DNA of 63,964 nucleotides, filler included, from Polymyxa betae A26-41 (Eukaryota; Protista; Endomyxa: Phytomyxea): assembly GCA_003693705.1 (NCBI GenBank). It is 8 parts of 8 records of this genome, joined end to end, with 100 filler letters (N's around TTAATTAATTAA, not from the genome) between each part and the next. Parts side by side here need not be neighbours in the genome. Positions count along the whole stretch, not along the records: positions 18,089 to 27,662 come from RBZT01000581.1; 7 more parts are not named here. One strand, 5' to 3'. Shown here piece by piece: positions 7,010 through 46,600 of the stretch (the first letter of the stretch is position 1; the number at the start of each line of letters is the position of its first letter). Position numbers and translations under genes: made by a program. The notes below the pieces were generated by a model, which was given only the letters and a program-made list of their open reading frames with translations, was not told where the DNA came from and did not search any database.

Positions 7010-9705
7010 TTAACGTTTTTTTAGAAACATATTCCGAAAATCTGCATTTGATTTTCCTACTGATTCTTCCAGAATCGCATCATTACTTTGGGCTTGAGCA
7101 ACATTTAAAACGGGTTTTCTTGTTCTATCGACAGGAGCTTGAGGAATAGCAAATCCACGCGGATGAAAAACAGCAAGCTTTGACTCTTTCGACCCAGATA
7201 GATCACGCTTCAGGAACTTGTTGTTATCCTTTCCCGGAGGGTTAGATATTGCAACCGATACCTTGCACCCATTCATTGTAAATTCATTTTCAACAAGAGC
7301 AGCAGCCGATTCACTGTCCGTTTCAAATTCTATATATCCAATCCCCTTCAACTTGCCAGTTCTACTTTCAGTAGGAACTCGAACGCTTGAAATGTTTCCA
7401 TACTTTTCAAATCGAGAGCGTAACGCTTTCTCAGCATCTGCTTGTGAAGAACTCCTATCGAAACCTTTTACAAAGATGATATTGCTTTCAGGCCCGCCAG
7501 ATGCTTCAGTGGGATCAAAAAGGATCTTTCTTGGGGTTTTTCGTGCAGCGTTCTCTTTAAACGCTTCGACGCTAATAAAACGTCCATAAAGTTCACTCCG
7601 ATTCAAAGCACTGATGGCAGCTTCAACGCTTTCCGATTGAGCAAAATCAATGTAAGCAAAACCTCTTGTTCGACCTCGAACATCGCGGGGTATGCGAACT
7701 TGAATAACTTGGCCAAACGGACTAAACAATTGCTCGAGGACCTTCTCCGAGACTTTGTGATCGACATTCAAAACGAATGCAGTAAAAATAGCATCAGGCT
7801 TGACCACAGATAATTTCGGGTTTTTGGCGGTTTCCACAGCAGCTTTATGTTTGCTCTTCTTGGTGATATTATCACTGTGATTAGAGGACTCCAGTTTACG
7901 CTTAGTTGGGATGCTTGCTCTTTCGCCCTTTTCTGAACGTTTGAGATATTGATTGTCTAGCAGTAATGAAGCTTTGAAGGAAGCTTCGTCCCTAGTTTCA
8001 AGCGAACCATGTTCAGTTTCAAATCGGATCCACGCTGAGCTTATCGTCTCAAGGTTCTCATCATGTTGAAATATGTGGATTCCACGTCGAAATGCCGAAC
8101 GACATTTGTCGATGTCTCCAATTTCTTGTTCGAACCGGAAATACTGAAGCCAAAACTGAGGCTGTTTCCCGGCTTTTTTCAGTATTGTACTCCAACATTC
8201 ACGGGCACTTTCGACATTATTCAGAAGATGCAGCTCAACTTCAGCCCAATATCGGTACAGGGTGAAGACTGTATCTGTAAATGGTGATGCCTCTTGGGAA
8301 TATTGATCAAACTCAACAGCTCGTCTAAATAACATCCTAATAGTTTCTGGATCGGATTCCAAGTCCACCAATCGTGCTCGAGAATAACACATTTCCAGGA
8401 CAATTCTAATGTAATCGTCACTGGTTGGAAATGATTGGTTCATTGCTTCGTCGAAAATCAATCTGGCCTAAGCAAAATTAAGAGTCGTAGGGAACAATAA
8501 AAAAAAGCATTTTACGCTTTCAAGTGAGGTATCGTTTGCTGTTGACGTGATAATCCATTCACACCATAAACTGACGGCCCAGGGACAGTTCCTAATGGCT
8601 CTCCTACAAGCAACTAGAGCGAGAGATTCCTGTAAGGATTTCAGTTTAAGAGCACAAAGATGAGATTTTTATGATCACATACTTGTGCATTTCTGGAGCA
8701 GTGCATTCTCAAAAATCGAATGTATTTCTGCCATAAAGATTCGGAATTGAATAATACAGAAATGGCGCGCTCAAAGAGACAAGTAACGCGATTAACATGA
8801 ACGTGACCTTCTGAAAGTTCAGAACTGATATATGTGGTCCAAACAGAAAGGTCGATATGGTCAGCCTCAAGCAGCTTTGCTTCATACGGAAGCAAGCGAT
8901 TGTACACTGAATGTGCCTATCGGTAGTCAGCATAGTGAAATAAAGACAATGATGTTGCTTACCTTTGCAAATGATGCGACCTCAGGTGAAGAGCTATTAA
9001 AAGTAGACTGGTACCATTTCTTATATTCTTCCATAATATCGTCCATCTGAAGTAATGGAATGCCAAGCTGACGAATGTATAGCTTCTTCTGACGATCAGG
9101 ATCATATTCATATTTTCGGTACATTTCCCAAAGAGCTGATCCTTCTGTGAAATGTGCTCCACAGGAACTGATCGCTTTTTCAAACAAGGAAGTAACCTGA
9201 TCCCGGTCCTTGATCTGACTGGAAACGTATTCGACATATCGGAGAAAGATATCAATAGAAAGGAAATCCTGTACAGCTCGCTCGAATAGTTTGATAACAT
9301 CATTGGGCTTTGAACTGATGCGTATTTCGTCGTCGATCCATTGGATCCATATTGCTATGCTCTATTTCAGCGACGGCCGAACACGTTCAAACACTCCTGA
9401 CATTTATCCAAAGGAAATCGGGACGCCATGTCTTCACGTGCTTGACGTAATTCTTCAACCATCATTGCCGAGCGCAACACAGCGATATACTTCTCATAAT
9501 TCTCATATGAAGGGTTGAAACTCACCTAAAGATCATTGAAAAATTTCAGCAGCAATCTGTTCTGTCCCAAAACCTGTTGACTGAGCTGTAAAACTTCTTC
9601 TTGAACTTCGTCCATATCAGAGCTACCCGAGCTGCTCTCGTCATTGTCATCATCATTCATGTCGATGCTCTCAGCGACCAGAGCGTCGTCATTATCCTGC
9701 GACAT
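7010..9705 (-). CDS. SART3: SART3/PRP24 U4/U6 snRNP recycling factor (HAT repeats, two RRMs, C-terminal LSm-interaction motif)
   Basis: HAT repeats (LFERAISV, LWQKYIRF, FWLQYFRFE); RNP1 motifs RGFAYIDF and KGIGYIEF; terminal KSNADFRNMFLKK. Confidence 0.92.
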
Positions 9706-12417: not shown

Positions 12418-13097
12418 ATCATCGCAAATGATTCAGACTGGGAAGAATATCACTCAAGCAATGGGCAATAGAAGAAGGCAAAGCAGGTCCATCTTTAAAC
12501 TGTCAGAGTTCTAATCTGATAATTATTCCACAAACAGGAATGCTTGCATATGCTGAGTATTGGCTGAGTTGGGTCTGTACGAATCACCAGAACGTCCACT
12601 GTCCAACCGAAGTGAGAAAGTGATTCATAAAATCGGGAGTCGAGCTGCGAACCACTTAAAACAATATGTAACAAAGATACGAAATGCTGCTTTTTTGCAA
12701 TCGTGTAAGCCTGAGCAGCTCTTGAATCGTTAGAAGGCATGATGATCAACACCATTTGGGGACATTTTGAAACGTTTGGAAACTTATCAGAGCAACTAAC
12801 GAAATCTTACACGTTGAATGAGGTGGCTAAAAGAATTCTGTATCAATACTGTATTGATCTGACTATTACCTCGGCTTTTTGTGACATTGGTTCAGGCTTC
12901 TCAATATGTTGATGGCTCTCGTCGTCTGGATTTCTTCCATTATGAATTGATTGTACCTTTAAACAGAATCAACCAGATGACAAACATGTCCGATCAGTAA
13001 TGTAAACTGTTTCATTATGTGCTATTATCAGAGATCGCCTGTGAATCAATATCATGCAGATTTGCATTCCAGAAATCATTTCCTTATTGAACATTCC
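12418..13097. repeat. Right copy of the dispersed inverted repeat (partner 30-836); the decayed segment continues to ~13560
   Basis: Direct reverse-complement identity with 30-836. Confidence 0.9.
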
Positions 13098-13599: not shown

Positions 13600-16500
13600 T
13601 GTTGACATAGTCGTACTGGCCCACCTGCCGGCTACACCAAACGAGCTCGTGCCCTTATAATCTATCCAAACACATCAAGGCGCGTGCCTGATTAACTATC
13701 TAATCTTTTTATTAATAATGCAAGTTCATTCCTTGAGTTGTATAATTCTCACCAAGCGTTCTAGTAGCAGTTCTACAACAGGTTATTGGCCCAGATCACG
13801 CAAACGTTATCTCGTCCCACGATCACGATAGCAATCATGAGCGACTCAAAGATTTCCATGCAGCTGACTTCTTACACGCTGACGGACCGCAACTGGCAGT
13901 TATGGCGTCGAGAGGTCGTCATCGGCATGAAACGCATCAACGCGTACAACATCATGAAGGGGAACGAAATTCGACCATTCCCGATCAACAGTTTCGCGAA
14001 CCTTATCCCGGACGCAGCTAAGCTTGCCGAAGCTCAACAAAAGCTCTCCGAAGCAACGGTCGCGTTTATTACAGTCCAGAAGAAAAGTCAAGAAAACCCT
14101 AATGACGAAGTGCTAGCCAGAACGTTCCAAAACGCAAGAGCAGACCTTGAACTGGCCAGTGACGACTACATTCTTCTAACGACCAAATCTCCACCCAAGA
14201 CTTCGAGTTCCGACTCATCAGCGGGGAGAGACACAGCAGACTGGGAGCGACGACATGACCAAGCTTATCATCTTCTCATTATGTCGCTGTCCGAGACGTA
14301 CAAAACGCTTACAATCGACTGCCGTGACCTCGAGTCTACTTGGAGCACACTCGAAAACCACTTTGAGAGCAATGCGGCAGCCGACGTCATTGCCGCCGAA
14401 TCCCAACTCGACCAGCTGCGGCATGGAGACAACGATGATATACTGGAGTTCTTGAACACCATCAGACTGCTTCGCAATATGCTGGCCAGTGCCGGCGCAC
14501 CCGTCTCTGATCGGAAACTGTTCTTAACAGTTATAGAAAAGTTACCGAAGAAAATGCAAGCTCTACATGACACCATTCTGTACGGGCCTGACGATCGTAA
14601 GACATACGCCGTGCTGGAGCAGACATTATCGTCTTATGCCAAAAACAACCCAAGACGCCCACATTCCGAAGAAGCAAACCTGACTGCGACAAAGGAGAAG
14701 ACTTGCAGGCATTGTAAGTTGAAAGGCCATACAAGGGGTGAATGTCGAGCTCGTCAACACGTCTGCAAGAAATGTGGAGCGACTGGTCATTTCGAAAAAC
14801 GGTGCAAGAACAAAGACAAGCCTGACTCAAACCGCAAGTTTACTGATGAAACCCAGACGACCAATTACGCGTTCTCAATCGGCGCCAGCAAGAAGCCGAG
14901 CTGGATCATCGATACAGGAGCAACAACATCAATTAGTCCGGACGTAACCCCGGACCGGACCACACCAGGCGAGTACATTACGATGGCAAACGGCGCCGCG
15001 ATCCCGGTCAAAGGCCGAGGGCACGCAAATGCGGGTTTCCCGATCACAACCGTCCTCTGCGTTCCTGAAGCGAGCCGACCTCTTCTCTCAATCGGAAAGG
15101 CATGTGACGACGGTGACATCGATATTGCAACTTTCGACCAGAATGGATGTAAATTGTTTAAGTCAGGGAAAATCATCGCAACAGGCACCAGACGCAACGG
15201 TTTGTACGAGCTATCCAACGAAGTGCGTACGGAGGAGGTTCTTCATGCTTTAGCACCATTAGAACGATGGCATCAAAGGCTGGCGCATTCTCCTCACGCC
15301 GTCGTTAAGGAAATCATCTGCAGACAGACCGCGACAGGACTCGAGCTGAACGAGAAGACTATAAGCACTAACCATAAGTGCGAGGCTTGCGAAACGGGCA
15401 AATCGACGAAATTACCCTTTCAACTCCGCGACCCAGATCACCGAGCCAAATTACCAGGGAGAGTCATCCACATCGACCTCTGTGGGCCGATGCAAATCGA
15501 GAGCATCCAAGGCAACTGATACGCCATGCCTGTCGTTGATGAGCAATCCAGATTCGTTACCATTTACTTCATGGCTAGGAAAAGCGAAGCAGCAGACTTA
15601 CTGCTGAAGTGCATCAAAGAGTATGAGACCTACACAGGCAACCGGGTCAATACAGTTCAGGAGACAATGGCGGGGAGTTCACATCAACGTACCTGAAGAA
15701 CGAGCTCGCCGACAGAGGGACACGCCTGCAGACGACCATCCCGTACACGCCAGAGCAAAACGGAGTGGCTGAAAGAATGAACAGGACATTGGTCGATCGA
15801 GCAAGAACCATGTTAACGCACGCAGGCCTAAAGACAGAGTTTTGGCAGTTCACGATGGCAACAGCAACCCACGTAACGAACCGGCTGCCGACGAACGCCA
15901 ACGGAAGAAGGTCACCCTACGAACTATGGACTGGACGGAAACCAGACCTGCAGCACATTCGCGTATTCGGATGCAGAGCCTATGGAGACATTCCAGATCA
16001 GAAAAGGCAAAAATTCGATGTCAAAGCTAATGTTTGCATCTTCTTGCCACGAATCAAAAGGGATACGTACTCATGGACGAAAGCACCGGCAGCATCATCA
16101 CATGCAGAGACGTCATCTTCGACGAATTGCACTTTCCTCAAAAGAATTCGACACAGCAGCGTGACATTCTAGGAGGCAAGGGAGAGCCATGCACCACAGC
16201 TACCGAGCTCGACATGCATCTTAAGCCATCCCCTTCAATCGAGCTCAATCATCAACCAGAACTGCCTCCGAAGACGTCAACGCCGCTCCAGAAACCTTCG
16301 ACGATACCTGAAGATCATGATCAACAACATCTTCGAGAATCGGATGAAGACCCGCACCAAAATAATACTACAGAACCGCACGCAATTGTTGATATACAAT
16401 CGGACGACGACCATGAGCCCTAGACCCAGCAAGCAACTGCTCCAAAATCATCGACACATAGATCAACACAAAATCGCCGAACATCATTCTCTTCCCCAAC

Positions 16501-17367
16501 AGAATCCGCAAAACTAAAGAGAAGAACTTCCTCTCGCATCAAAGTACAACCTGTACGTCTAGAGGATGAACAAGGAGATGAATACATTGCAAGAACAAGC
16601 ACAAGATCAATCATACCGTTCTGACGGTAACAGAGCCTCGAACATACGACGAAGCCATGAAGAGTCTCCAAAGAAACGAATGGCAAGACGCGATGGAAAA
16701 AGAATTCGACTCGCTCAACAAGAACAACACATGGACACTCTGTCAACTACCTGCAAACAGAAAAGCAATCAAGTCAAGATGGGTTTACAAGGCAAAGACA
16801 AAACCTGACGGTACCATCGAGCGCTACAAGGCAAGACTCGTCGCTCAAGGCTTCAGCCAACGACACGGTATCGACTACGATGACACATTCTCTCCGGTTG
16901 CGACCATGCCGACGATCAGTATCCTCATCAGCCTGCAAGCACATCACTGGCATGTAAGACAGCTCGACGTGGACACAGCATACCTGAACGCCAAGCTGGA
17001 CACAGAACTGTACATCACGCAACCGAAAGGATTCGAAATCGCGAACAGCCAGGGAGAGCCGATGGTTTGTAGGCTAAACAAGGCAATATATGGCCTGAAA
17101 CAAGCCGGACTCGCCTGGTACAACCACTTGACGCAATTACTTCAGGACATGAGCTTCGAGAAGTCGACTTCCGATCAAAGCCTGTTCATGAAGCGATCAC
17201 ATAACCCGGTATTCGTTGCAACTTATGTTGATGACCTGATAGTTGCATCCCCATCACTCGACAACATCATCGACTTTGAGAAGGACCTGCAGAAAAGGTT
17301 AAACATCAAGATCCTCGGAGATATACGACACATACTAGGATGGAACGTCAACTTTGTGGACGGATAC
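13600..17367 (+). mobile_element. Ty1/Copia retrotransposon: 5' LTR 13600-13780, PBS, gag-PR-IN-RT with stop/frameshifts; interrupted at 17368
   Basis: LTR TGTTG...CAACA; PBS GGTTATTGGCCCAG; two CCHC knuckles; WIIDTGA; GAG-pre-integrase WHQRLAH/CEAC; IHIDLCGP; EQNGVAERMNRTL; RYKARLVAQG; QLDVDTAYL; YVDD. In-frame TGA at 15517. Confidence 0.95.
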
Positions 17368-18979
17368 TGTCATGCCCATTGAGCATNNNNNNNNNNNNNN
17401 NNNNNNNNNNNNNNNNNNNNNNNNNNNNNNNNNNNNNNNNNNNNNNNNNNNNNNNNNNNNNNNNNNNNNNNNNNNNNNNNNNNNNNNNNNNNNNNNNNNC
17501 AACGATTCCGATCAACTCCAAAATTCATACGTTTCTCATCTCGTCTCCGACTCTCTATTGTTTCGTTCTCTCGCCTCGCATCACCTCCGACTCCCCTCCG
17601 ACCTTCGTCTCCGCTCCGCCTCCGTCTCACCGGCACCGCTCCGTACGTCCTTCCTACGCTCCACTACGATCCCCTCACCGCTCCACTCCGACCCTCTCTC
17701 CGCTCCACTCCGTGCCCCGCCGCTCCGCCTCCGAGGACTCCCTGACGTCGCTCCGTTGCAGGACACCGGTCCCCCGCGTCCTACCCTCTGCTCCCGAGTC
17801 ATCGCACCGCTTATCTAACCAATAAAAGGGGACTTTTTACTCGATCCTAACAGTTTGATCGGAATCCCCTTTCTTCCAGCTCTTTCAAGTTCCCGCATTA
17901 TTTCTGCCTGCTATTTTACCCTCAAGCCTATCTCCGTTTCCCTACGAGTTACCTCTACGAATTTTCTATTTGGGTTGTGTCCCTTGGANNNNNNNNNNNN
18001 NNNNNNNNNNNNNNNNNNNNNNNNNNNNNNNNTTAATTAATTAANNNNNNNNNNNNNNNNNNNNNNNNNNNNNNNNNNNNNNNNNNNNAGCGCGATTACC
18101 TCATTGCAGTTACAAATTTTGCAGGTTTTAGCTCTTTGATTTCTCCTTTGCAGTCGATAACTGTCTCCTTGAACAAGAGCTGCGTTATTAATGATAGCTT
18201 TAATGGAAAGGTAGTTGTAATATTAAAGTAGATAATGCAGAGATGTGGTGTAAAGACGTTGTCAGATAATTTTTGAAAATGCCCACAGCTACGATCCTAT
18301 AAATGAGATTGAATTGTGTTCAACTAATTTCAACAAACTATTAGAATCGAATCAGGACAAATCTCAGAAAAAGAGACACCCGATATTTGTGGACTTTATC
18401 TGACTATCTCTTCACCAACCTAAATGGGTAATCATTCGACTTCCTATCACCCTGTAGTCTTGTACGAGAGCGTTATCACTCCTGAGATATGCATTGTCTG
18501 GGATTCTGCCATGGTCGATTATGACCAACATGACAGGGCAAATATCAATGCAGAGAATGTTTATAAACCTACCTGAAATTCAGTCATAGGAAGATACTGC
18601 CTTAGAAATNNNNNNNNNNNNNNNNAAGTTTTCAAAGAACCTTCCACATTTGGTTATCTGATAAATAGAGCTTTACATTTCGAGGTTTGTTCACCAAAGA
18701 CTTAAAAAATCTCCAAGAATCAGTAATATATAAGTAATTGTTGAACTAAATGGCTGTTTGTGGTAGCGTCTATGTTCGTGCTCAAGTTATCTGAGAAGTC
18801 TTCGTATTGGTTCAAGTAAATTCTGATTTACGAACCACTGTTCCATTAACAGCCATCTCTTCACCATTCTTCCGAATCTGTACAGATCTGGGCCACAGTT
18901 CTATTATTTACATTGTCGGGTCCTTTTATTACTTTGAGACCGTTTATAAGTTTTAATTTTCTGCTGAAAATACTTACAA

Positions 18980-19467
18980 GGTACCTCTCATATCAGGAAC
19001 AGCTCGCGATCGACATCGTTATCGTCGACGAATCGCTTCAACTCAGAGCAGATGAAGGCAAGAACAGGAACGATCTTTGGCTGAATTTCCAACATTTCAT
19101 GGGATTCATCTAGGATAAGATAATATCATAAATGCAGGACATTGTTGATAGCGATCCAATTGACGCTCTAACGATGATGATGCACGAATGGCTAACAACT
19201 GACCCTGCGCTTGCCACCATCAGTATCCTCGACGTACATAGACCATCTACCGAGCAAATCATCTGCAGTGACTGGACCAGGATCCATGACATCGACCTGG
19301 CTTTAGTACCTGATAGATGGGTCGTGTCATATTCTCTCCAGAACCTCAATCTGCTCTTACTTGATGGCTGTCCTGGTATGTTTACCATTTCTTGATTTTC
19401 ATCATGGTTTTATTTCATCTCGCCGGTCTCTTCATCCTGTTCTAATTTATTTACTGCTTACAACCTG
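18980..19467 (+). pseudogene. Fragment of an unknown gene; its last ~150 bp are repeated at 24060-24211
   Basis: Consecutive ORFs separated by stops; direct repeat seen in sequence. Confidence 0.35.
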
Positions 19468-20389
19468 TGTTAGCGAACATCTGTTGATATCGCCGCATCA
19501 AAGCGTTGAGGACTCTTAACTCTCGGACCGCTTCATTCAACATGTTGATTCGTGCAGTAGCGTCCAATTGTCTAGGGTTCAATTCCATTAAACATAACAA
19601 GCCTCGCATTCGTTCTGTATTTGGTCAATCGTATGTCACCGTGGAACTGAGCATGGAATGCATTGCCTAATGAATTCGACACGCAATGGCAATCTAACAT
19701 ACTGAGATTGCGACGTTCTAATTCGGAAAGCGCAGCAATTGCAGGATGGATATCGGCAACTATGTCGTTATTGTAGAATGGTTCTCCATTCTTACAACGA
19801 TATTCCAAAGATCCGTGCTCGTGAGATGATGTCTAATTATTTGAGACAAGTTCTGGATCTATGTCTAGACTGAAATATGAAGGGTTCAGGAATGAGGAGT
19901 AAAGCATTGGATCACCGATTGATTTCGCCAAGCTTAAATATTTTTTATAAAATTTATGCAGCAAGTACTCTTTGCTATCTCCACGTTATATCGAATACTC
20001 GTGAGATCTGGCAAATAAAGTCCCCCACAGGCTCAGATTCTTGAGAGTTTTATCTGAGATGCATTCATTAAATTATTGGGGCCTCTTTTTATCCGACACA
20101 ATAACGATGGGTTTTTTGGGAAAATGATCGTTTTGTAGGATAGGCACGGTTACCGTTAGACCGGTTACCAAAGTATTGTGACCGGTTTTACCACCATGAG
20201 TAAATACTGATTTCTTTTTAAGTGCCCACAACGATTATGTCCAACTCAGAACAGTCTCTATGATATGGAAATACTGATTAGATTGCGATTTGGCATCTCC
20301 TACGGGAGAAACTCTGTTGAAGCGCAACTTATTAATAGCAGATGTAGAAATCAGTTCGAAAGTTACTCACCCCACCGTGTTGACATCTA

Positions 20390-21143
20390 GTTTGACTCGC
20401 CCGAACTCATAACAGAAACTAAACCCGGTCTGCTACACGACTTCGAAAGGGCGTTGAAGTCATGGCCGGAGCAATCCTGGACATTCGTTGACCTGCTTAA
20501 TGACCCATTTTCGATTGTGTTCGCGACAATACGATTCAGCACACCGATCGCTATACTGAATGGCCTGACATACGTCATTGGCTGATTGATGAGATAGCGC
20601 CAGGAGCTGCTCCCGGTGGGCTTCCAACTCCCGGTCCATCGCAACCGATTCCCGAAGCGAGCAGCTCTACTACGGATTGTTCAGAGCAGATTTCTCGTGC
20701 GACACAACAAGACCGCTTCCGGATCAGAATCCAGTCTCTTCAACTGAATCAGATCCAATTCCTGATCCAGGGTCCATTCCTTCGATATCAAGTTCATTGC
20801 GACCTATTTTTGCTTCCGAAACTAACAGCTTCTATGTGCATCATTCAGAGCCGATCCTTAATCGAGAATCTGAAGCTCTCGTCTCTGATTCTTCCGAGTC
20901 CAATGCTGTTTCCGAACCCCATGTCCCGACTCCGATTCTGCAAGATTCAAGTTCCGTTTCTGTGAAGAAGGATTCGGATTCAAAATCATCAGGTGAGCGA
21001 ACTTGGAAATCTCGCTTCTAATTTTTGAAATTTTCTTGTTCAGGAATTTATATCATAGTAATTGTGTCTATTGTCATTATCTGTGTATTCATTGCTATAC
21101 TCGCTCTAACAAGTAAAAAGTTGCTCAAAGGCCATCGTTGTAG
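20390..21143 (+). pseudogene. Ser/Pro-rich-stalk protein with a C-terminal TM helix (paralog at ~46200-46590, minus strand); 5' part apparently disrupted
   Basis: PDPGSIPSISSSLRPIFASETNSF..., an intron at ~20993-21043, then GIYIIVIVSIVIICVFIAILALTSKK. Confidence 0.55.
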
Positions 21144-24100
21144 TTCTATCTGTGCTGTTAATCAAGTCTGTTAAAGTTGGAGTCCAGGTATCCTTTAAAC
21201 TCTTTAATACATTATTACAACCTCTCGTTCCTGACATTATTCACATCTCTTCATATTCCAAAACATAATATCGACATTATCGACCGCTTTCCCATTCATT
21301 GTGATGTTTGGTGATGTTTAATTGTTTGTCATTCTTATTATTGTAATACTCCTATTGGATACGCTGCCGACATTTACCTATGTGAGAGATGTTGCACAAC
21401 TTAGAACAGATGATCCACGAAGTATAATATTCCTTTATGTCGTCGTGAGAGATGATTATCACAAGCGAGAGATTGGCATTAGACGATTGGTGGTCAATTG
21501 CTGACATTCCTGCCAAGATCCATAACTATCAGAATTACGAATACACTCCTGGGCTCTGCTGTTTGTAGCCTACAGAAACAGAATCATACATTTTACCTGC
21601 AAAATGGAATGCCTCGTTCACCTTCATTAAAATAGATTCTTTCCAAGGCGATAGATAAATGTTCGTTAAATCTACCGAGACCCCTTTTTGGTACTCTTCC
21701 ATTCCAGATGTCAATAAGCAGACATCCAAAATGGTATATAAGTATTCAAGAATCTCTTCGATATATTGTGAGCATTCTTAAGAATAAATATGCACAGCAT
21801 GGGATATAGACGAAAATATTCGTACTGAGCTTGATGCTGAAGAACAGCGACTATCAACCTGAAACTACATCTTGACCTTTGACCGAATACTTCTTCGAGA
21901 CCGATATAGCAGTACAAAACAAAAGGTTTATTTGAAAAAATGTAAAGACCGACGATTAGACAGCAATATACAAGACAAACTGCAAAAGCGAGGACCAACA
22001 AAAAAGTGAACGGAGAAGAATCGTGAAGTAATGTCAACACATGGAGACATAGAGCTATAGGCTGCAGAATTAAAAATTGCAATTATAAATAAATAGAGAA
22101 ATGATCAGAGATCGAATCAAGGTGGAAGCGAAATCATCCCAGCTGACATGAAGGCACCTGATTTATACCAATGTCAGAATAAAAGCTGAAACCAAATCTC
22201 TTGAGCCTACCAACAACGAATATACATCCATATCTATATATCGAAGTGCATGACGATGACCATTGTGGAATAAATGATACAGGCTGCCTAGCACGATGAA
22301 GGGTAAAAAAGTCGTGCTGCCGTAATGCAAAACATAGACGAGATACTATATGAGAGTCTATAGAGAGATATTGCCATGTTAAGGGAATCATCTTACTTAA
22401 TCTGGAAGCTAATAGTCAGTTAGTTTATCAGAAAACATTCTTTAAACATTAGAGCTAACTAAAGCTGTGAAACAATTCGAAAAATTCCCATTACAAGATC
22501 AAGCATCAAAATTAGAATATGAATGAACCTCTCCCTAAACTAATCCTGTTTTAACTGGTCGAAGTCAGGCTTTGACCTGGTTTTGCTACTTCAAATCAGT
22601 CCAGGTTTTGATCAGCAGACAGTCACATCATAGATCCTTGCGAAGTGCTTTTATAAAGTTTTAACTTTATAAATCGTAAATACTTAAGATGAAGATGAAG
22701 AACCTCTGATGGATTTGATTCAGCAGCATATGGCTGTATTAACTGCTGAGCCGTTATATATTTCACATTCATATAGCCATACAATATTTCTCTGAGCATA
22801 GATACGCCATGCTTGGCAATCACTGGCTATCTGCTAAATTCTGTAAGGTATGTAAGCTCATTTCCTTTGATACTGATTGAGATAGTCTGTTAACATGCTG
22901 GTTCAGTTACCAGAATTTGGTCACGCCTCAAATGATTGAATACCGTAGTTGGTTTCTAGGTATGCACAAGTTCTGAATACAGCTCTTCGAAGATATTTGT
23001 AAAAATGATAACCTTATTGCTCTTCATTAATTTTTTGAATATGGTTGACACTAATTGTCAATGTACTGCTTAGAAATATGCACCTTATCAGTACAGTTTA
23101 TTCTGATATATGTTGTGGACTTGGTATGAATGAGTCTATCTTCGTTAAACCAGTATATATTTCCATGCTATGTTTGACATCTTTCAGGGGAAACTAAGAA
23201 AAGCAAACATTATAGAAAACGTTTGTGGGAAGAATTCCTGATATTCATACCGAATGCCGAATATCAGAAAGGTCATTGATCAAAGCTCTAAATAGCAGAC
23301 GCAGCTTCACCCTATCTATAATCACATCGTTATTTCTACCAGAAATCCTTTGTGCTAGTATACTGAACAGACAACGGGCCCTGGAACAATGTCCATTGAA
23401 GATCATCTGCTTCCGACTTGCCTTAGTGTTGGTAAGAATCAGCCCATCTCCCAAGTCCTGTTCCTTCGACAATTTCTCTGTTATTATTTATGGTTTGATG
23501 CCTGTAGACCACGCCGACGATACTTATATTCGTGTTGATAGTTAGTGACGTTGCCTTCCATGTGCATTCGAATCCGTTCCTCGATACATTCTCCCATCCA
23601 AGATATAAGTGGCTGCGCCAACCATTTCCCAGTAATGAAACTGACAGTGATCTGGGCCGCCCAACAGTTGCTAAAGCAACCAGATCGACTAGCTGCCTCA
23701 ATTGCCATAGCACGAGCATCATCGACATATCCTTTATTTCAGAGTTGTTTGGCTGCTGATGTCAAGATAACTAGTTGGGCTACATTTGGTTATTGCTTTG
23801 AATTCACTTGCACTTTACTATTTGGGTTAAAGGCTCTTGATGTTTCGAAGCCAATATATGTACTGTTTCGCATGCTTGATAAGGTATTAAGCTTTGCTGC
23901 TACCAATAGCTTTATTCGTGACGTTTGTTTTGTTATCAAAGTAAACTGGATTGCTCGAATTCTCATGATGTCATTTAGTGTAAGCCGCCGAGATCGCTTT
24001 CAGCTTTGCTAACTTCAAGATACTAACAGCAGATGCCTTTGGCGAGGGTGGGGGGGGGGGATGGTGTCGTGTCATATTCTACCCAGAACCTCAATCTGCT

Positions 24101-25109
24101 CTTACTTAATGACTGTCCTGGTATGTTTACCATTTCTTTATTTCATCATGGTTTTATTTCATCTCGCGGGTCTGTTCATCCTTTTTTTATTTATTTACTG
24201 CTTACAACTTGATGTTAAGTATATCGTGCATCTAAATCAATATTATCATGGGTCAAATTTTGAATATTTCTCTCAGTGAGAGTAGCTGGATATCATCTAT
24301 TGAATGCATAGATGGGGTATTCGCCAAACCTGCTCTTCAAGAACACTTTCCAGTCTAATGTTATCTGTTTTCTTCAAAGGTAAACCCATTGGGACACTCA
24401 TCTTTGATAGATGAATGTCATTACGCCGATGTCAGGTGACTTCCTTCAAGTCCTGAATCTTCATCATGCTGATTATCCAGATGCGTCCACATTGTCGTCC
24501 TATATTTCAATGCAAAATCGTTCCGGATTTTCAGTGTGAACTCAACCACGTATTGTTTGAGGACCTCGGTTACCAGCGTGTCTCCCATGTTGAGAGTTCA
24601 CATCGCCCTTGAGATCCATATCGCTGCCAAGTGGTGGCAAATCGCAACAGTACTATGGACCCGACGCTGTTAAAAAAGTAAGGTTCTTTATCAACAAAGT
24701 CGATATTTGCAGTGCAATCCAGGATATTTGAAGGCCCTTTCTGCGAAACGATAAAGAAAATTTTCAACGAGGTCATCTCGGAGAAGACAAAGCCGGGTCA
24801 GGTCCCGGAGCAACTGGAAGATCCCAAGAAGGAAGAGAACGGTCCTAAATTTCTCTTCACATCAGCTTTCCACATGTCGCCTGTTGGATGCATTGGTTAA
24901 TCGATAATCTCAGCAATTGTGGCAAAGATCGTGAAATACCTCTGGAAGCTGGTGAAGCCGTTAGCATTGTCTGCTTGAATGAAATTCGTTTTAAGGATGC
25001 GCGTTCTGCGGGAACAAATTGACGAAGTTGTTCTCACTATTCGTCAGATTGAGATGGACATCTCCACTCTGGAAAAAGAGGAAGATAAATTCTCAAATTG
25101 ATGGCGCGA

Positions 25110-25940
25110 ATGGGAAATAAATCGATTTGAATGCATTGTCACTACCGATATATATTGTTTTTTTTTGTGAAGCATTGTCTTTATTGGAAGGCTCGGTCCC
25201 AGTATTTTACCGTATCCCCATTGTGAATATCGATTCCTTTAACCTTCCATCAACAGCTGATAGTTTCGCTTTTAGTCCAGCAATTACAATTCTGTCTTTT
25301 GCATTGAAAAAGGGGGTCTTCGCTTTGCTTTGCACCTTTTCCGCCATTTCTGATATTACTGTCTGTGGTCACCACTTTCCAGCCTGTATGTATACAGAAG
25401 GGCGCCAGCCGCCAGTGATGTAAAATTGACAAAAAAGTTTTGAACCATACCAGAGGGGGATATGGTCCACTCAGCAATCTGTTTGTTTATTGTGAGTAGG
25501 GTTCGCAATTCAGGTACGATTCTCGGCATGGTTGTCTATTGTAATCTATATGACATATCATTAGATGGGGTCGGGAAAATGTGACAACCAGGCAAGATTC
25601 GGCCGGTATATCTAAAGAAAAGGTCGAAGCTTGCTGCCAATTTGTAATCTGAGTGACGTTTGCCCTAGAGCCATGCAAGTTTGTGGCGACATAGAATCTA
25701 CATCAAATCATGGAGCCATGGCGCGCTGTTTCCAGACCATTTCTCTATTGTGCTTGCGACACTTTCGCCTGTTTTAATATCGGCTGTCATGATTCCCATA
25801 ACGTCAGTAATGGCTCATGTTCAGAACTGTTCTGCACACAACAGCGGTAGCACCCTGGAAACTGTTTCAATTCACATCACTTTCAGAACAAGAGCAACTG
25901 AAACTATTCATCTCGAGCTGAGCTTTTCATCTGTGTGTTG
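25110..25940 (-). other. Endogenous viral element: decayed RdRp core of a segmented negative-strand RNA virus (bunya/articulavirus-like L or PB1)
   Basis: One minus-strand frame (with stops) reads DEKLSSR*IVSVALVLKVM*IETVSRVL (motif F), then STIEKWSG (A), then ~97 aa later SPSGMVQNFFVNFTSLAAG (B). After frameshifts come KVVTTDS (possible C), TMGIR*N...SQKKTIYI (D) and (E>A)FKSIYF (E). No introns. Confidence 0.72.
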
Positions 25941-27662
25941 TGTCGTCCCCGACATGATCGGAGGCCGCCCCGCCAGCACGTGACCTGCCCGTGGTACGGA
26001 TCGCGTACCCGACCCCAAGACTCACCCTGGCCCTGTTTCTCTTCTTTTTTCTCATTACTATCTGAATACACCTGGTGACACTTCCGTTCACCTGCGTTCT
26101 TTATCTGTTTACTTATAGTACACGTCATTTTTTGAACGAGTCATGGTCTCTAGCGAACAAGCCAGCCCGCCGCAGCTGCAAGACGCTTCCGAACCCGGCC
26201 CCGCACCGGTCTCCGATCACCCAGCACCCGCTACCCCAATCGAACGAGTCCAGCAACTGCTTCGATCGGCGATCTCCCGTCTGGACGAATCTATCGTCTC
26301 CGACACAAACGCCCAAACACGAGCGCTCCAATCAGAGGTCAACGCGCTGACCGAACAGCTCACGTCCCTCAACGCGGCATATGCCGCACTCGGCGTGCTC
26401 CCGCAGCCCCGATCACCATTGCCGCCTAGTGGACATCCGACCCCGACATACGAACGTCCTATCTCGCTCCCCTCACGACTGCCAAGATTCCAACGCTCGT
26501 CATCATCCGTCCAAGGAGTCCAAGAATTCCTGACATCATTCGAAGACCTTCTACGAGCTCACTCATACCCGACATCACATTACGTACACGCCCTTTTGAC
26601 CTGTTGCGGTAAGGATGAGGCAATCTCATCGGTTCTTTCCAGGAACAGTTAGAAGCCATCTCAATGAAGAAGGGCGAGAGCGTTAAGTCCTTCTGTGACC
26701 GTTATGTTCAGGCCATGCGTCTAGCGGAACTTGACCCGCATCGTGACGATCGTCGTATTCATTTCATTCAGCGACTTCCGAACGACATCCAGATCCAACT
26801 CCGCTCTTTCAAGGTTTCATGCCCGGACGCCGTAAGTCCGTGGCAGCCATCACCGACACGTTGGCCCTTATCCGTCCGGCATCCTATCAAGCCAAGTCCA
26901 TACCTCCTTCTCAGACCCCCAATTCGAACTGGTGCCCGCATCATCGCACGTCCACCATGATGCAGCCGACTGCCGTGTTCTGCAGTCCGGAACGTCTTCC
27001 AGCGCCACCAACAGACCCGAGAATTCCAGTAAGTGGTGTGACCATCACAAGACCAACCGTCACGACAGCAGCGAGTGTCGGGCCAAAACGAAGGCCGCGT
27101 CCTCATCGACCCCGAAACCCGGTACTTCTGACTCTGGTCAGCTCCGCTGTTATTCCTGTAACAAGACTGGACACTTCGCACGGGACTGTTCGACTTTCCC
27201 CTCGAATCCCGTTACGCCTGCTTCCAACCACCACATCAGCTACGGCTCGACAGCAAGGCATGGCGATGTCTCGATTTCATCATCCTCAGCCACGGTGACC
27301 GGAGTTGTGGAGGCGTTTAACGATATGTCCAGTTCCATCCACATGGTCGACACCGACACTTCACTATCATCAGCTTTGTTCGTCCCAATCACTCTGGCTG
27401 ACCGCCTTGACCTTCAGGCTTATATCGACACGGGGGCCTCCAACTCCGCAGTCCGTCAATCCTTCATACAGCAGCTACCCCCACAGGTTCAGAAGTCCTT
27501 CCAGGCCTGTGCAGAAGGAAGCGTCATCTCTCTTGGCGCAAAAGATGCGTTTATTCCACGGATCGGCAATGTCTTAATTCCGTTCAAATGGGGTGGAAAG
27601 TCATTCTCGCACCGATTCGAGGTCCACGATCCTCCGGAGGGCATCGATGTCATCGTGGGGCG
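25941..27662 (+). mobile_element. Ty3/Gypsy retrotransposon 5' part: LTR ~25941-26127, gag, protease (frameshifted); runs into a gap
   Basis: TGTCGT...ACGTCA termini; two WC..H....H....C knuckles and CYSCNKTGHFARDC; YIDTGAS protease. Confidence 0.88.
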
Positions 27663-27762
27663 NNNNNNNNNNNNNNNNNNNNNNNNNNNNNNNNNNNNNN
27701 NNNNNNTTAATTAATTAANNNNNNNNNNNNNNNNNNNNNNNNNNNNNNNNNNNNNNNNNNNN

Positions 27763-32879: not shown

Positions 32880-33839
32880 TGCAATATGACGGCGATGAGA
32901 TCAGAGCGCCCCGTTTCGATCAGATCGTCGATCTGTAACGCTAGCGCTCGGACGACGAAACGGACGAATGGTAGCAGGGCGCGCAGCTCGGAATCCGTGA
33001 ACTCCTTGATCTTCATTTCGTCCAGCTGGATCGGCATCCCGAGGAAGAACAGTTTGCGGGCCAGAATGGGCCGGGATCTGATATGGTGTCCATGCTCTTT
33101 GGAAATTGTTTCGGCGATAATCATAACCCCACTTCGCGTTCCTCTTTGCGAGCTGGTCTTGTAGTTTGTCCCAGTGCGAAAGGTCGGATGAAATCTGTTC
33201 CTCATGGGGCCGGATTATATCGAGAATATCAGCAGGAATATCGCTGATGTAGCCGTTGGAAGACGTGGTCAGCGCTTTGCTCAGCACATAATCACACATC
33301 AGCTTGATGGGATCGTATGAATGTAGTCGGAACATCCAGAAGGTGTTGTTGACGACGAGGACCCAGCCGGGCGTCAGTTCCGCCACGGATCCGATTTGCC
33401 CGATCACGTCGAATAGGTTCATGATCACTTCAATCTCATCCATAGCGATGGACAGGAGCCTATACATGAACAGAGGCGCCGTCTCTTCTGTTAAGAGATC
33501 GCTCAGTGAAGCGACATTACGTTGATCTCTGCATATATTGATCAGCCATTTGATGTCGCGGATGAAACTGTCTCTGGAGGTCGGTAGCTTAGCAACGATC
33601 CGGGTCAGACGCTGATTACGGAGAATGTCCCGGACTAATTTAAAATGGGCCTTGTCGACCAGGGCGAGTCTTCCGAGTAAGACCGGGTCCGGCCGGGCAT
33701 GACGGAAGACAGCCTCCAAAATCTGGCTAGGAGAGGAGTGGGCAAGGTTCGGGTGCGGTCTGCACTTCGATCGGAGTCCGGGATAAAGCAAGGCCGACAC
33801 ACTCATTAGAATCAGTGTTGTATTTAGCTTCGTTGTCAT
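32880..33839 (-). pseudogene. Secreted F-box-like protein, paralog 1 (+1 frameshift ~33119; runs into a gap)
   Basis: Hydrophobic N-terminus; LAHSSPSQILEAVFRHARPDPVLLGRLALVDKAHFKLV; colinear and highly similar to 34736-36089. Confidence 0.7.
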
Positions 33840-33956
33840 GACTGCAGGACAAACGCGATGAGATAGGAGATGGATAGAGTCGACGGGTTCGGAATTCACG
33901 GACAATGTATAGCAATATCGGGCAAGGGTTTCTCTTTGTCTTTGTCGACTGATGAG

Positions 33957-34146
33957 AGGCCTCCATTCGTCTCAAGTACGCGCAGCCTCCATTCGTCTCA
34001 AGGACGCGCAGCCTTCCAATCGTCTCATGGATGCGCAGCCTTCCATTCGTCGACGAAGACGACAATACGCAGCTCTCCATTCGTCGAACTCTCACAGATG
34101 CGCAGCCTTCCATTCGTCTCAAGGATGCGCAGCCTTCCATTCATCG
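33957..34146. repeat. Imperfect minisatellite, ~7 units of ~26-36 bp (core CGCAGCCTTCCATTCGTC)
   Basis: Repeated gcgcagcc(t)tccattcgtc(tcaaggat) units read directly from the sequence. Confidence 0.9.
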
Positions 34147-34735: not shown

Positions 34736-36089
34736 TCACCTGTTCTCGGCTTTCCCCATCGACTCTCTTTTTCTCGAAGGAGTAGGGCGACATGCGAAAT
34801 TTTGAATTGACATCTCTTCTAAAGTAGCGTAGTTCAAACAAATTATCAATCTCAGAACGTGGTACAGCATACGACCATAGTTATCGAGACTGCTGACCAA
34901 GCCCGGGACGGACATAAGCAGTCGAACAGCTTCCACATTCTTAACCTGTACAGCACGGTGTAGAAAGTACGAGTCAGCAAACGAATTGGTTCGGGCAAGC
35001 CAGCCTTCCGGAAGCGGCGCTTCCAACAGCATGCACAGCAGGTCGTGCTGGCCCTTGGCCATGATCAGGCATCGGACGATACGTTCGAGATAGCACGGCG
35101 TTTCCGTGAAACCGTCGAGAGGTGGAGAGAAGAACGCCTCCGATTGCAATATGACGGCGATGAGATCATAGCGGGGCAAAGGGGATCTGCATCGCTAGAG
35201 CTCGGACGACGAAACGGGCGAACGGTAGCAGGGCGCGCAGCTCGGAAACCGTGAACTCCTTGATCTCCATATCGCACAGTAGAATCGGCATCCCGAGATA
35301 CAGCAGTTTGCGGGCCAGTATGGGCCGTGATCGGATATGGTGACCATGCTCTTTGGAAATTTTCTCGGCGAGATCATAAATCGCCATCGCGTTTTCCTTT
35401 GCGAGCTGGTCTTGTAGCTGTCCCCAGTTCGAAAGGTCGGATGAAATCTGTTCCTCATAGGGCCGGATTATATCGAGAATATCGGCAGGAATATCGCTGA
35501 TGTTGCTAATGATAGAAGTGGTCAGCGCTTTGCGCAGAGCATAGTCAAACATCAGCTTGATGGGGTCATATGAATGTTCTCTGTACATCCAGAAGGTGTT
35601 GTTGACGACGAGGACCCAGCCGGGAATCAATTCGGCCACGGATTCGATTTGCCCGATCACGTCGAATAGGTTCATGATCACATCAGTCTCATCCATAGCG
35701 ATGGACATCATCCGATACAGAAACAGAGGCGCCGTCTCTTCTGTTAGAAGATCGTTCAGGACAGCGACATTACTTGGTCGCTCTGTGCATATATTGATCA
35801 GCCATTTGATGTCGCCGATGATATTATCTCGGGAGGTCGGTAGCTGGATAACAATCCGTTTCAGACGCTGATTACGGAGGATGTCCCGGACTAATTTAAA
35901 ACGGGTCTTGTCGACCAGCGCGAGCGTTCCGAGTAAGACCGGGTCCGGACGGGCATGACGGACGACAAACTTCAGAATCTCGTTAGGACAGGAGCGGGCA
36001 AGGTTCGGATGCGGGCTGCACTTTGATCGGAGTCCTGGATAAAGCAAGGCCGACACACCCACCAGAATCAGTGCTGTAACTGGATTCAT
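34736..36089 (-). pseudogene. Secreted F-box-like/ankyrin protein, paralog 2 (net 11-nt deletion frameshift ~35180)
   Basis: Signal-like MNPVTALILVGVSALLYPGLRS; F-box-like PNEILKFVVRH..LALVDK.RF.LV; ankyrin-like FLHRAVQVKNVEAVRLLMSVPG..LDNYG in the downstream frame. Confidence 0.7.
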
Positions 36090-37199
36090 TGTGATGACTT
36101 CAGGACAGAGGAGATGAGAGACGAGATGGATCGAGTCGGGACCGAGTGCGAACTTCACTGAGAATGTATAACAATAGGTCACTCCCAGTCGCACCCCTGC
36201 AGGCGCTCGGAGGCCCCGCCAGTTTGTGTCACTACACTCTCGCCAGTACCATTCTGAGCGGTCGAACGTTTTGTCCACTGGTCGATCGAGGCCGCGCTGT
36301 CCCTTGTGGACACTCTCGTCAGAGCTATACCACTGGTGGACAGCGCGGCCTCGATCTACCAATTGCTGTATGGGATCTGCTTGTTGTCTCAGATAAGTGG
36401 AAAGCGATGTGAATCCTGCGCTTTTCACCAATGATACGAGAATTCGGTAGCGATCGAGGATGACGAAGACGATCATGCTCACTAACAAATTTTCATCAAC
36501 CGATCATCACCAGTTTGAAGTTGGCAAGCACTTCAGTTCTGGCGAACTGCTTGTAAAATGCGTCCGAGAACTGTCGCGAACTTCTGGTTTTTTGTTGAAT
36601 TTCTAAAAAATATGCTCTAGTAGTCAAAGACCCTTGGCTTTTTTTCAGAAGCTGTGAGTATTTTGTGAGACATTCTCATTTATTTTAATTGAAAACATCG
36701 TCCAAAGCCGACAATTACTCAAAATGAATTTCATTGAATTGTTTCGTCATCAAAGACGAGCCTGTAAATCAGATATTCTCATAGCATGTGATTGATGAGC
36801 TCGACTGTAAACAGATTCAATCGAAGTTGGATTGGATTGGATTCGACTAGTTCGCTGATTGATGGTCAACAGGCGGCGCTTTTTCCAAAACGCATGGATG
36901 GAAAATTTAGGCAAATTGCCCAAATAGATTCCAGCACCCTTACTACCGATTTCGGGGCGTTGCATTAATTCATCCGTTTAAATAGCAATGTCGACATACA
37001 TCGCTGGGCTCTATATTTAGATTGTGTAGATGTGATCGGGCTCGAGTGTGTCCTGTTCTAACTCTGTTTGAATAGAGGGCTATCAAAGCAGATCTGGTGA
37101 TCTGTATTACCATCTCTACTCTGTGTTCGAGAATAACCGTCTACTAGAGGAGTTCGTTTCGGGTGGTTTGAAAATCCGCTTGGTTTCACCTTTTTCAAT

Positions 37200-45819: not shown

Positions 45820-46600
45820 GTCCTGTCGCGATTTTCTACCAATCGTCTAAGTCGAATTTTTCGCTTTTGGTAGTCAAATCTCCAGACGAAAGATAGCACG
45901 TAAATAGTCGGCTTTCGAAAACGATCGCCACAACTGAACATAGCGAGTACTAAATCATCTTTTCAGCTTGTACAGCCTCTCTCACATTGGGAAATATCGG
46001 CAGAGTACCCAGTAATAGCACAGCTGCAATTATAAACATCATGATGAATATGATTTATGAAAGCTGTCGCTAATGGCGATATTATTTATTGGAAAGAGAA
46101 GAGATTTTTACATGGTGTATTGCAGATTTCGATAGAAACCGGGATTGCAACTCCATCAGAGCTGATTATCAGGACAGAAACAAATACAGGCGATGATTGC
46201 TGAAAATCGTTCTACTTGGCAGAGCGAGCGAGTACAGCAGTGAATACACTGACAAAAACCCTAACCCTAACAGTTAGAATAATAGAAAGTTCCTGAACAA
46301 AGGAAATATTAACAATTAAAAGCGAGATTTCCAAAGTCGCTTTCGTTCTGATTTCAAATCCACCGTTCATTTCTGAATCTAAGCTCGGATCCTGCTGGAT
46401 GGGAGTCGGGCTCGGAAGATTCCAAGACGAGATCGACAGGCTCCTGATTGATGATCTGCTCTGAACGATTTACCATGAAGGTGTTCGTTTCGGAAGCGAA
46501 CAGAGGAGGCGATGAGCTAGATTTCGAACGAGCGGATCCTGGACCAATATCGACAATCTGCCTTGATTTGGGAGTGACGGATATTCGCAATAATCAGGGC
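45820..46600 (-). repeat. Diverged inverted segmental duplicate of ~20760-21520 (stalk-TM gene end plus adjacent decayed fragment)
   Basis: PGSARSKSSSSPPLFASETNTF vs PGSIPSISSSLRPIFASETNSF; shared intron ttggaaatctcgctt...ttgttcaggaa; shared downstream ataatatcg.catt and agacgattggt. Confidence 0.8.

What the first reader, a model, noticed from the sequence alone, without database searches (positions are those of the whole stretch)
25110..25940. Endogenised polymerase of a segmented negative-strand RNA virus in a protist genome
Seen: the minus strand, hidden from the ORF track by stops, reads in one frame for ~550 nt. It gives ..DEKLSSR*IVSVALVLKVM*IETVSRVL..STIEKWSG..(~97 aa)..SPSGMVQNFFVNFTSLAAG. 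After frameshifts it gives KVVTTDS, MGIR*N..SQKKTIYI and AFKSIYF. Known: Polyploviricotina RdRps have, in this order, motif F (K..R.I...ET.SR, e.g. influenza PB1 KLKRRAI..VETLARS), A (DxxKW), B (GM.QG/GMMMG..SS), C (SDD), D (K) and E (EFxS), with ~95-100 aa from A to B. Inference: this is a fossil of a bunya/articulavirus-like virus that replicated in this lineage. That matters if the host is a plasmodiophorid, as these are known mainly as vectors of plant viruses. The catalytic D of motif A and the SDD are degraded.
Basis: partly seen in the sequence, partly recalled or inferred. Interest (0 to 1): 0.92.

Follow-up and report, generated by a model that had tools for sequence, protein, structure and literature searches.

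The report
Likely chance mimic of viral polymerase
A duplicated, stop-riddled stretch of a eukaryote genome, cut by a retrotransposon, spells several short strings that look like the motifs of a flu-type RNA virus polymerase, but they score no better than chance in most tests, so it is likely ordinary non-coding DNA, with about a one-in-four chance of being a very old viral fossil.

Summary
The peptide strings are present as described on the minus strand (25922-25114), in genomic DNA contiguous with host flanks. The RdRp reading is not supported. No match came from Pfam, PDB, 1.84 billion representatives or IMG/VR. Profiles built here from 131 natural orthomyxo-, phenui- and peribunya/tospo-type polymerases score the site at background. 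A motif-chain score reaches p about 0.02 per window only with orthomyxo blocks and frames tuned to the site, and p 0.1-1 otherwise. The frame is no more open than random DNA. The D- and E-like strings are the reverse complement of the poly(A) region (AATAAA, T9 run) of a spliced + strand host transcript. Real features: a second copy of the block (about 95% alike), and an LTR element inserted at 25941 with a 5-bp target-site duplication. For the fossil: motif order, top rank within the window, and a lysine at the expected motif-F position in the uninterrupted copy. Host not identified. Verdict: likely chance mimicry (0.68); decayed articulavirus/bunyavirus-like fossil 0.27. The scan had no look-alike note on other DNA.

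The parts
25854..25922 (-). Motif-F-like strings KLSSR*I and ETVSR; the K-L-x-x-R-x-I register equals that of natural PB1 rows
   Evidence: per-position frequency in random DNA 2.5e-4 and 1e-3 with orthomyxo blocks
25734..25751 (-). Motif-A-like string TIEKWS; no catalytic Asp
   Evidence: block score -4.6 (orthomyxo) and 1.5 (pooled) against 35-36 for natural rows under the pooled block
25413..25451 (-). Motif-B-like string GMVQNFFVNFTSL; second conserved Gly absent
25316..25376 (-).
   Evidence: p 0.36-0.90
25114..25221 (-). Motif-D/E-like strings MGI...NASQKKTIYI and AFKSIYF; they overlap the host poly(A) region on the other strand
25116..25166 (+). Poly(A) region of a host transcript: AATAAA at 25116-25121, A-tail added after 25144, T9 run at 25158-25166
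   Evidence: run X3 contig 24624-25144, no differences, A11 loose end; only AATAAA in 24434-25940
22649..25144 (+). Spliced, partly multi-copy host transcription unit without a long ORF or Pfam match
   Evidence: (five GT..AG joints in X3 or X8 inside this unit; summed depth to 2687 against 140 in X1)
25295..25940 (.). Block present in a second, diverged copy (paralog or divergent allele) that lacks the LTR insertion
   Evidence: 27 substitutions, 11 indels, one replaced stretch; depth about 150 for each copy in X1
25936..25940 (+). Left copy of the 5-bp target-site duplication (TGTTG)
   Evidence: matching 3' junction in a loose end of X3 at 26128
25941..26127 (+). 5' LTR (TG...CA, 187 bp) of a retrotransposon inserted into the motif-F-like stretch
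26128..27662 (+). Internal part of the LTR element: broken gag-like frame, zinc knuckle, protease-like DTGA string; cut by the contig end
   Evidence: (PF00098, E 1.6e-6)

Best explanation
The stretch is likely non-coding host DNA whose minus strand spells polymerase-like strings by chance. Shown: it is genomic, exists in two diverged copies, and was cut at 25941 in this copy by an LTR retrotransposon that duplicated 5 bp of target. Also shown: its left end is the 3' end of a spliced, polyadenylated + strand transcript. Inferred: the D- and E-like strings come from that transcript's T run, AT repeat and AATAAA read backwards; the F-, A- and B-like strings are a chance chain that a scan of many windows will meet. 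Inferred: the block was already non-coding when it was duplicated and has drifted neutrally since. It makes no polymerase under either reading.
For: No RdRp hit in Pfam (0 of 4 frames), PDB, 5.8 billion proteins of 344-2000 aa, 1.84 billion representatives (3 hits, all repeat proteins) or IMG/VR. Family HMMs run with --max on the window's six frames do not list the site among their best rows. Frameshift-aware local scores are 17-23 bits against a window background of 24-26. Whole-core scores are reached by 28-30 of 30 random sequences, while all 24 cross-family scores of intact polymerases exceed their null maximum. Held-out PB1 blocks give p 0.85 and 0.75; cross-family polymerases keep two of them (medians 17.1/8.9 for motif C, 6.6/4.4 for the FSNK block; window 2.5 and 0.2). 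The F-A-B chain alone ranks third in the window and is reached by 322 of 504 random windows. hhalign gives probability 0.3-0.9%, like control frames. The best of 131 pairwise scores is matched by 11 of 60 shuffles. Copy differences show no coding constraint: codon positions 8/12/6 for 26 substitutions, and 9 of 11 indels shift the frame.
Against: The site is the best motif chain of the window in 8 of 8 settings, with p 0.017-0.018 per window for orthomyxo blocks with tuned frames. One frameshift-aware local alignment runs from F to past E (25925-25020) in order (32.4 bits, below the null mean of 37.1). hhalign's best alignment to five PB1 rows recovers the FSNK-block-to-B register over 83 columns (E 0.13). 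The uninterrupted copy has a lysine codon right upstream of the junction, in register with PB1 K229 (read by eye; about 1 in 16 by chance). No alternative protein origin was found. My profiles cover three families only.
Confidence: 0.68

Rival explanations
1. A heavily decayed fossil of the polymerase gene of a deep-branching segmented negative-strand RNA virus (PB1-like in F, A-B spacing and D; phenuivirus-like in the ETxSR string and B-D spacing). Viral RNA would have been copied to DNA by a host reverse transcriptase and inserted antisense to the neighbouring transcript; it then died, was duplicated, and was later split by the LTR element.
For: Six strings in the right order; A-B 100 codons (orthomyxo rows 100-116), F2-F3 15 (14-17), D-E 9 (9-11). 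NASQKKT against natural NISQKKT, IETVSRVL against natural IETVSRIL, NFTS against natural NFTS. Chain p about 0.02. Lysine at the F position in the second copy. Intact peribunya/tospo-type polymerases pass E<0.01 against the orthomyxo HMM in only 5 of 41 cases, so a decayed distant one could be invisible. Negative-strand RdRp EVEs are reported in a protist (Perkinsus olseni, PMC12548735, passages).
Against: Motif C, the motif A Asp, the second motif B Gly, the motif E Glu, the FSNK Lys and the GGxEKK loop are all missing. F3-A spacing is 39 against 47-78, and a 12-residue insert is needed inside motif D. The best matches come from different families for different motifs, and the mixture model that allows this is not significant (54 of 504 at best). 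The copies differ by 12 indel events for 27 substitutions; at that rate, enough decay to give 8 stops would probably have broken most motifs by frameshift (inference).
Confidence: 0.27
2. A decayed host gene or DNA-transposon fragment of a family absent from Pfam, whose true frame is not the one the reader chose.
For: The contig is full of decayed repeats. A + frame at 25001-25348 has 1 stop in 116 codons. RNA-like contigs of the second copy cover 25788-25940 and 254-585 bases beyond.
Against: 0 Pfam families in the 15 frames scanned over 22650-25940; no relative for P0001. The other frames were not searched in the large protein collections.
Confidence: 0.05

Closest known systems
PB1 polymerase subunit of Articulavirales (Orthomyxoviridae and relatives; natural rows L119-L139)
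   Same: K-L-x-x-R-x-I register, Glu 15 codons after the Arg, K-W with Pro seven residues on, 100 codons A to B, G-M, N-x-S-x-K-K-T, F-x-S.
   Different: No SDD (stated to be requisite in PMC10636315, passages), no motif A Asp, no GGxEKK loop, no FSNK Lys; spacing F3-A and B-D is off; no profile score above background.
L polymerase of Phenuiviridae and Peribunyaviridae/Tospoviridae (natural rows L001-L118, L141-L246)
   Same: IETVSR-like string, KWS, GMxQ, and a B-D distance within the phenuivirus range.
   Different: Chain scores with these blocks are reached by 411 of 411 random windows; no HMM match.
Non-retroviral endogenous viral elements in protists, e.g. Mononegavirales-like RdRp EVEs of Perkinsus olseni (PMC12548735, passages)
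   Same: If real, this would be a negative-strand RdRp sequence fixed in the DNA of a unicellular eukaryote.
   Different: Those were found by profile match in predicted proteins; this stretch has 8+ stops, frameshifts and no profile match.
LTR retrotransposon insertion (Ty3/gypsy-like gag by eye)
   Same: TG...CA LTR, 5-bp target-site duplication, gag zinc knuckle.
   Different: No TGG primer site right after the LTR; pol is cut off by the contig end, so the superfamily is not settled.

Membership tests
Polyploviricotina RdRp (PB1 or L) | Significant match to family profiles | tested here: not met
   Pfam; HMMs from 21, 69 and 41 natural rows; frameshift-aware and hhalign tests
Polyploviricotina RdRp (PB1 or L) | Motif A catalytic Asp (DxxKW) | tested here: not met
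   Thr at 25751
Polyploviricotina RdRp (PB1 or L) | Motif C SDD between B and D | tested here: not met
   best block between B and D in any frame, p 0.70-0.90 for four profiles
Polyploviricotina RdRp (PB1 or L) | Motifs F, A, B, D, E in order with family-like spacing | tested here: inconclusive
   order met; p 0.017-0.018 in 2 of 10 settings, 0.24-1.0 in the other 8; 54-501 of 504 in 5 mixture settings
Articulavirales PB1 | Other conserved blocks (GGxEKK, FSNK, post-E blocks) | tested here: not met
   seven held-out blocks, joint p 0.85 and 0.75; power is limited, since cross-family rows keep only two of them
Polyploviricotina RdRp (PB1 or L) | Palm fold | tested here: inconclusive
   single-sequence model pLDDT 37, no Foldseek match at E<=0.001; uninformative
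Polyploviricotina RdRp (PB1 or L) | Placement in an RdRp tree | not tested
   no significant alignment to build it on
Endogenous viral element | Present in host genomic DNA, contiguous with host flanks | tested here: met
   DNA-type runs X1 and X2 (two studies; X1 may be the source of the assembly) hold 24624-25366 with no differences; overlapping X1 contigs reach 25934
Endogenous viral element | Demonstrable viral homology | tested here: not met
   as above
LTR retrotransposon | TG...CA terminal repeat with target-site duplication and gag | tested here: met
   the 3' LTR itself lies outside the contig and is inferred from one loose end

The most novel reading that the evidence does not exclude
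This is an ancient, duplicated fossil of the polymerase of an unknown family of segmented negative-strand RNA viruses, mixing influenza-like and phenuivirus-like motifs, fixed in the germ line of a protist and later split by an LTR element: direct evidence that such viruses replicated in this microbial eukaryote lineage.
Probability: 0.27. Interest if true: 0.8.

Novelty: not a real feature. Interest (0 to 1): 0.28.

Why it matters
If the fossil reading held, it would tie an articulavirus- or bunyavirus-like lineage to a unicellular eukaryote host. PMC10636315 (passages) treats protist-infecting Articulavirales as hypothetical, and five of my six paper searches listed no such element in plasmodiophorids; I saw listings only, apart from passages of three papers. 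As it stands, the case shows how degenerate motif chains read through stops can look convincing yet sit within chance, helped by A/T runs at a poly(A) site. The LTR insertion with an empty second copy gives a direct, cheap way to settle it.

Tried and rejected
No whole genome is held, so no genome-wide copy search. PDB hits of P0001 to TAL-repeat proteins are chance matches of one short string summed over repeats (0 stretches pass alone). The three representative hits are bacterial-type repeat proteins. P0001 was searched among proteins of 344-2000 aa only; shorter ones were covered only by the representative search. An exact 35-base window pattern found 0 matches in metagenome contigs. Patterns for the F+A motif pair gave 36 viral loci: 1 in frame, with 4 stops, and none an RdRp by my three HMMs. 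The orthomyxo alignment found 1 metagenome locus, L283, used only as a control. Single-sequence fold and Foldseek were uninformative. Rfam 0 on the contig. No RNA holder was listed by label; I treat X3 and X8 as RNA only from GT..AG joints and an A tail. The RNA-like contigs do not cover 25268-25786 of this copy, which proves nothing. Host identity: 0 of 5 host ORFs found by exact look-up, SART3-like exon hits only 26-31%, Atlas hits under 0.9. The Atlas gave no result for the candidate frame, so language-model features remain untested. Rejected: that the adjacent LTR element captured viral RNA, because the target-site duplication and the empty second copy show it arrived later. Rejected: KVVTTDS as motif C (chance level). 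About 35 score settings were tried over; only the 2 tuned orthomyxo settings (and their forerunners) fell below p 0.05. Rows dropped before counts: duplicates and short rows (112 to 69 phenui cores; 41 cores kept from 106 peribunya/tospo loci), and rows failing an anchor regex (18 of 21, 44 of 69, 39 of 41 kept for blocks). Arena-, nairo-, hanta-, amnoon- and other families were tested only through Pfam. No supplements were read.

Full report
Observation. One minus frame (from 25937) carries the F-, A- and B-like strings; the C-, D- and E-like strings are in two other frames. That frame has 8 stops in 196 codons, where 11.0 are expected (P=0.22), so it is recognisable only through the motifs, not through openness. 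The window is a string of joined contigs; this one runs 18089-27662.

Unguided searches. With X at the stops, the frame found nothing in Pfam, among proteins of 344-2000 aa in the 5.8-billion collection, or in IMG/VR. PDB sequence hits were TAL repeats matching one short string, and the downstream frame had none. The 1.84-billion search gave three repeat proteins. Eleven other frames over 22650-25940 had no Pfam family. A single-sequence model was unusable (pLDDT 37) and matched nothing.

Targeted tests. I fetched natural polymerases with short motif patterns and built profiles from 21 orthomyxo-type, 69 phenui-type and 41 peribunya/tospo-type rows. HMMs run without filters on the window's six frames did not list the site among their best rows. 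Frameshift-aware local alignment gave 17-23 bits against 24-26 for the window's best background site. Forced whole-core alignment was reached by 28-30 of 30 random sequences, while all 24 cross-family scores of intact polymerases beat their null maximum. A profile extended past motif E was reached by 6-20 of 20 random sequences in six settings; its traceback does span 25925-25020 in order, at 32.4 bits. hhalign probabilities were 0.3-0.9%, as for control frames, against 78% and 10% for two intact cross-family controls. The best of 131 pairwise alignments was matched by 11 of 60 shuffles and beaten by a control frame. Power is limited: the orthomyxo HMM passes E<0.01 on only 5 of 41 intact peribunya/tospo rows.

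Motif chain. Blocks and spacings came from the natural rows only. F-A-B alone ranked third in the window. The full chain ranked first in 8 of 8 settings. In a larger null it was reached by 12 and 7 of 411 random windows with orthomyxo blocks and frames set as in the candidate, by 132 and 95 of 411 with any frame allowed, by 411 of 411 with phenui or peribunya blocks, and by 104 and 406 of 411 with pooled blocks. A mixture that lets each motif follow its best family was reached by 54-501 of 504. For a site picked from a very large scan, p of 0.02 at best is weak.

Held-out test. Intact polymerases of other families keep two of them, motif C and the FSNK block; the window scores 2.5 and 0.2 against medians of 17.1/8.9 and 6.6/4.4. 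Motif C is at chance under four profiles (p 0.70-0.90). PMC10636315 (passages) calls SDD requisite for PB1.

Genomic setting. DNA-type runs of two studies hold the stretch contiguous with its left flank, so it is not a stray RNA virus contig. Runs X3 and X8 show GT..AG joints on the + strand from 22842 to 24434, and X3 shows an A tail after 25144. The only AATAAA in 24434-25940 lies at 25116-25121 and a T9 run follows at 25158-25166; that AATAAA plus a U-rich element marks a poly(A) site is recalled knowledge. Read backwards these give the IYF of the E-like string and the QKKT of the D-like string, the highest-scoring block of the orthomyxo chain. This does not exclude a cryptic signal inside a fossil, but it offers a non-viral source for the best block.

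Second copy and LTR. X1 holds a second copy of at least 25295-25940 at the same depth (about 150 each), with 27 substitutions, 11 indels and one replaced stretch; it may be a paralog or a divergent allele. Substitutions fall 8/12/6 on codon positions and 9 of 11 indels shift the frame. Of the 8 stops, 6 show no listed change, 1 is altered but still a stop by my reading, and 1 lies in a deleted stretch, so the block was non-coding before the copies parted. The second copy lacks the element that starts at 25941 and is the copy seen in X3 and X8 (25788-25940 plus 585 and about 254 further bases). The element has a TG...CA repeat at 25941-26127, a 5-bp target duplication (with the X3 junction at 26128) and a gag zinc knuckle. 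It therefore arrived after the sequence it splits and did not bring it.

Evidence for the fossil. Negative-strand RdRp EVEs occur in a protist (PMC12548735, passages). These keep the reading alive at about 0.27.

Host. Not identified. Short GT..AG introns and host proteins only 26-31% like anything found fit an under-sampled microbial eukaryote (inference); two earlier notes on this genome say 'protist' and 'unidentified eukaryote' (unchecked).

Literature. Six searches listed no report of this element; two returned nothing. I read passages of PMC12548735, PMC10101049 and PMC10636315, only listings of the rest, and no supplements. The scan's own notes hold no look-alike.

Verdict. Strings confirmed, significance not shown. 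Best reading: chance mimicry in duplicated non-coding DNA cut by an LTR element (0.68). Rival: decayed polymerase of an unsampled segmented negative-strand virus (0.27; interest 0.8 if true). Overall interest 0.28. The 585 bases beyond the junction in the second copy should decide it.

Noticed in passing
window 22649-25144 (+): Spliced, polyadenylated unit whose middle (about 23500-24650) is multi-copy; other family members diverge after 24653, so this copy has its own 3' end. Longest open stretch of one spliced form is 201 codons, no Pfam match. A 91% copy of 24060-24217 lies at 19316-19472.
   Followed up: partly
window 25941-27662 (+): LTR element with a short 187-bp LTR and no TGG primer site after it; the LTR is joined to other flanks in X1 and X3, so the family has several insertions.
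   Followed up: partly
window 17989-18088, 27663-27762 and six more: The window is a string of contigs joined by N runs holding TTAATTAATTAA; neighbours across these joints need not be neighbours in the genome.
   Followed up: yes
window 32930-33971 and 35166-36503 (-): Two 87% alike copies of a gene for a predicted secreted protein (signal-peptide-like start, ankyrin-like end by eye); no Pfam match, Atlas hits under 0.9 with weak F-box leads.
   Followed up: partly
window 13768-17382 (+): Ty1/copia-like element (gag, integrase-like and RT-like frames by eye), cut by a gap; inverted repeats at 30-670 and 12566-13097.
   Followed up: no
window 20763-21211 and 46116-46546: Decayed repeat pair, 67% alike, inverted.
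   Followed up: no
L121, L124: Two divergent PB1-like contigs from environmental libraries (55% to each other, about 30-36% to other PB1 rows) whose motif B carries NFTS, as the window's string does; no significant pairwise match to the window.
   Followed up: partly
window 7010-9361 (-): SART3/Prp24-like host gene with best hits of only 26-31%, so the host lineage is poorly covered in the protein collection.
   Followed up: partly
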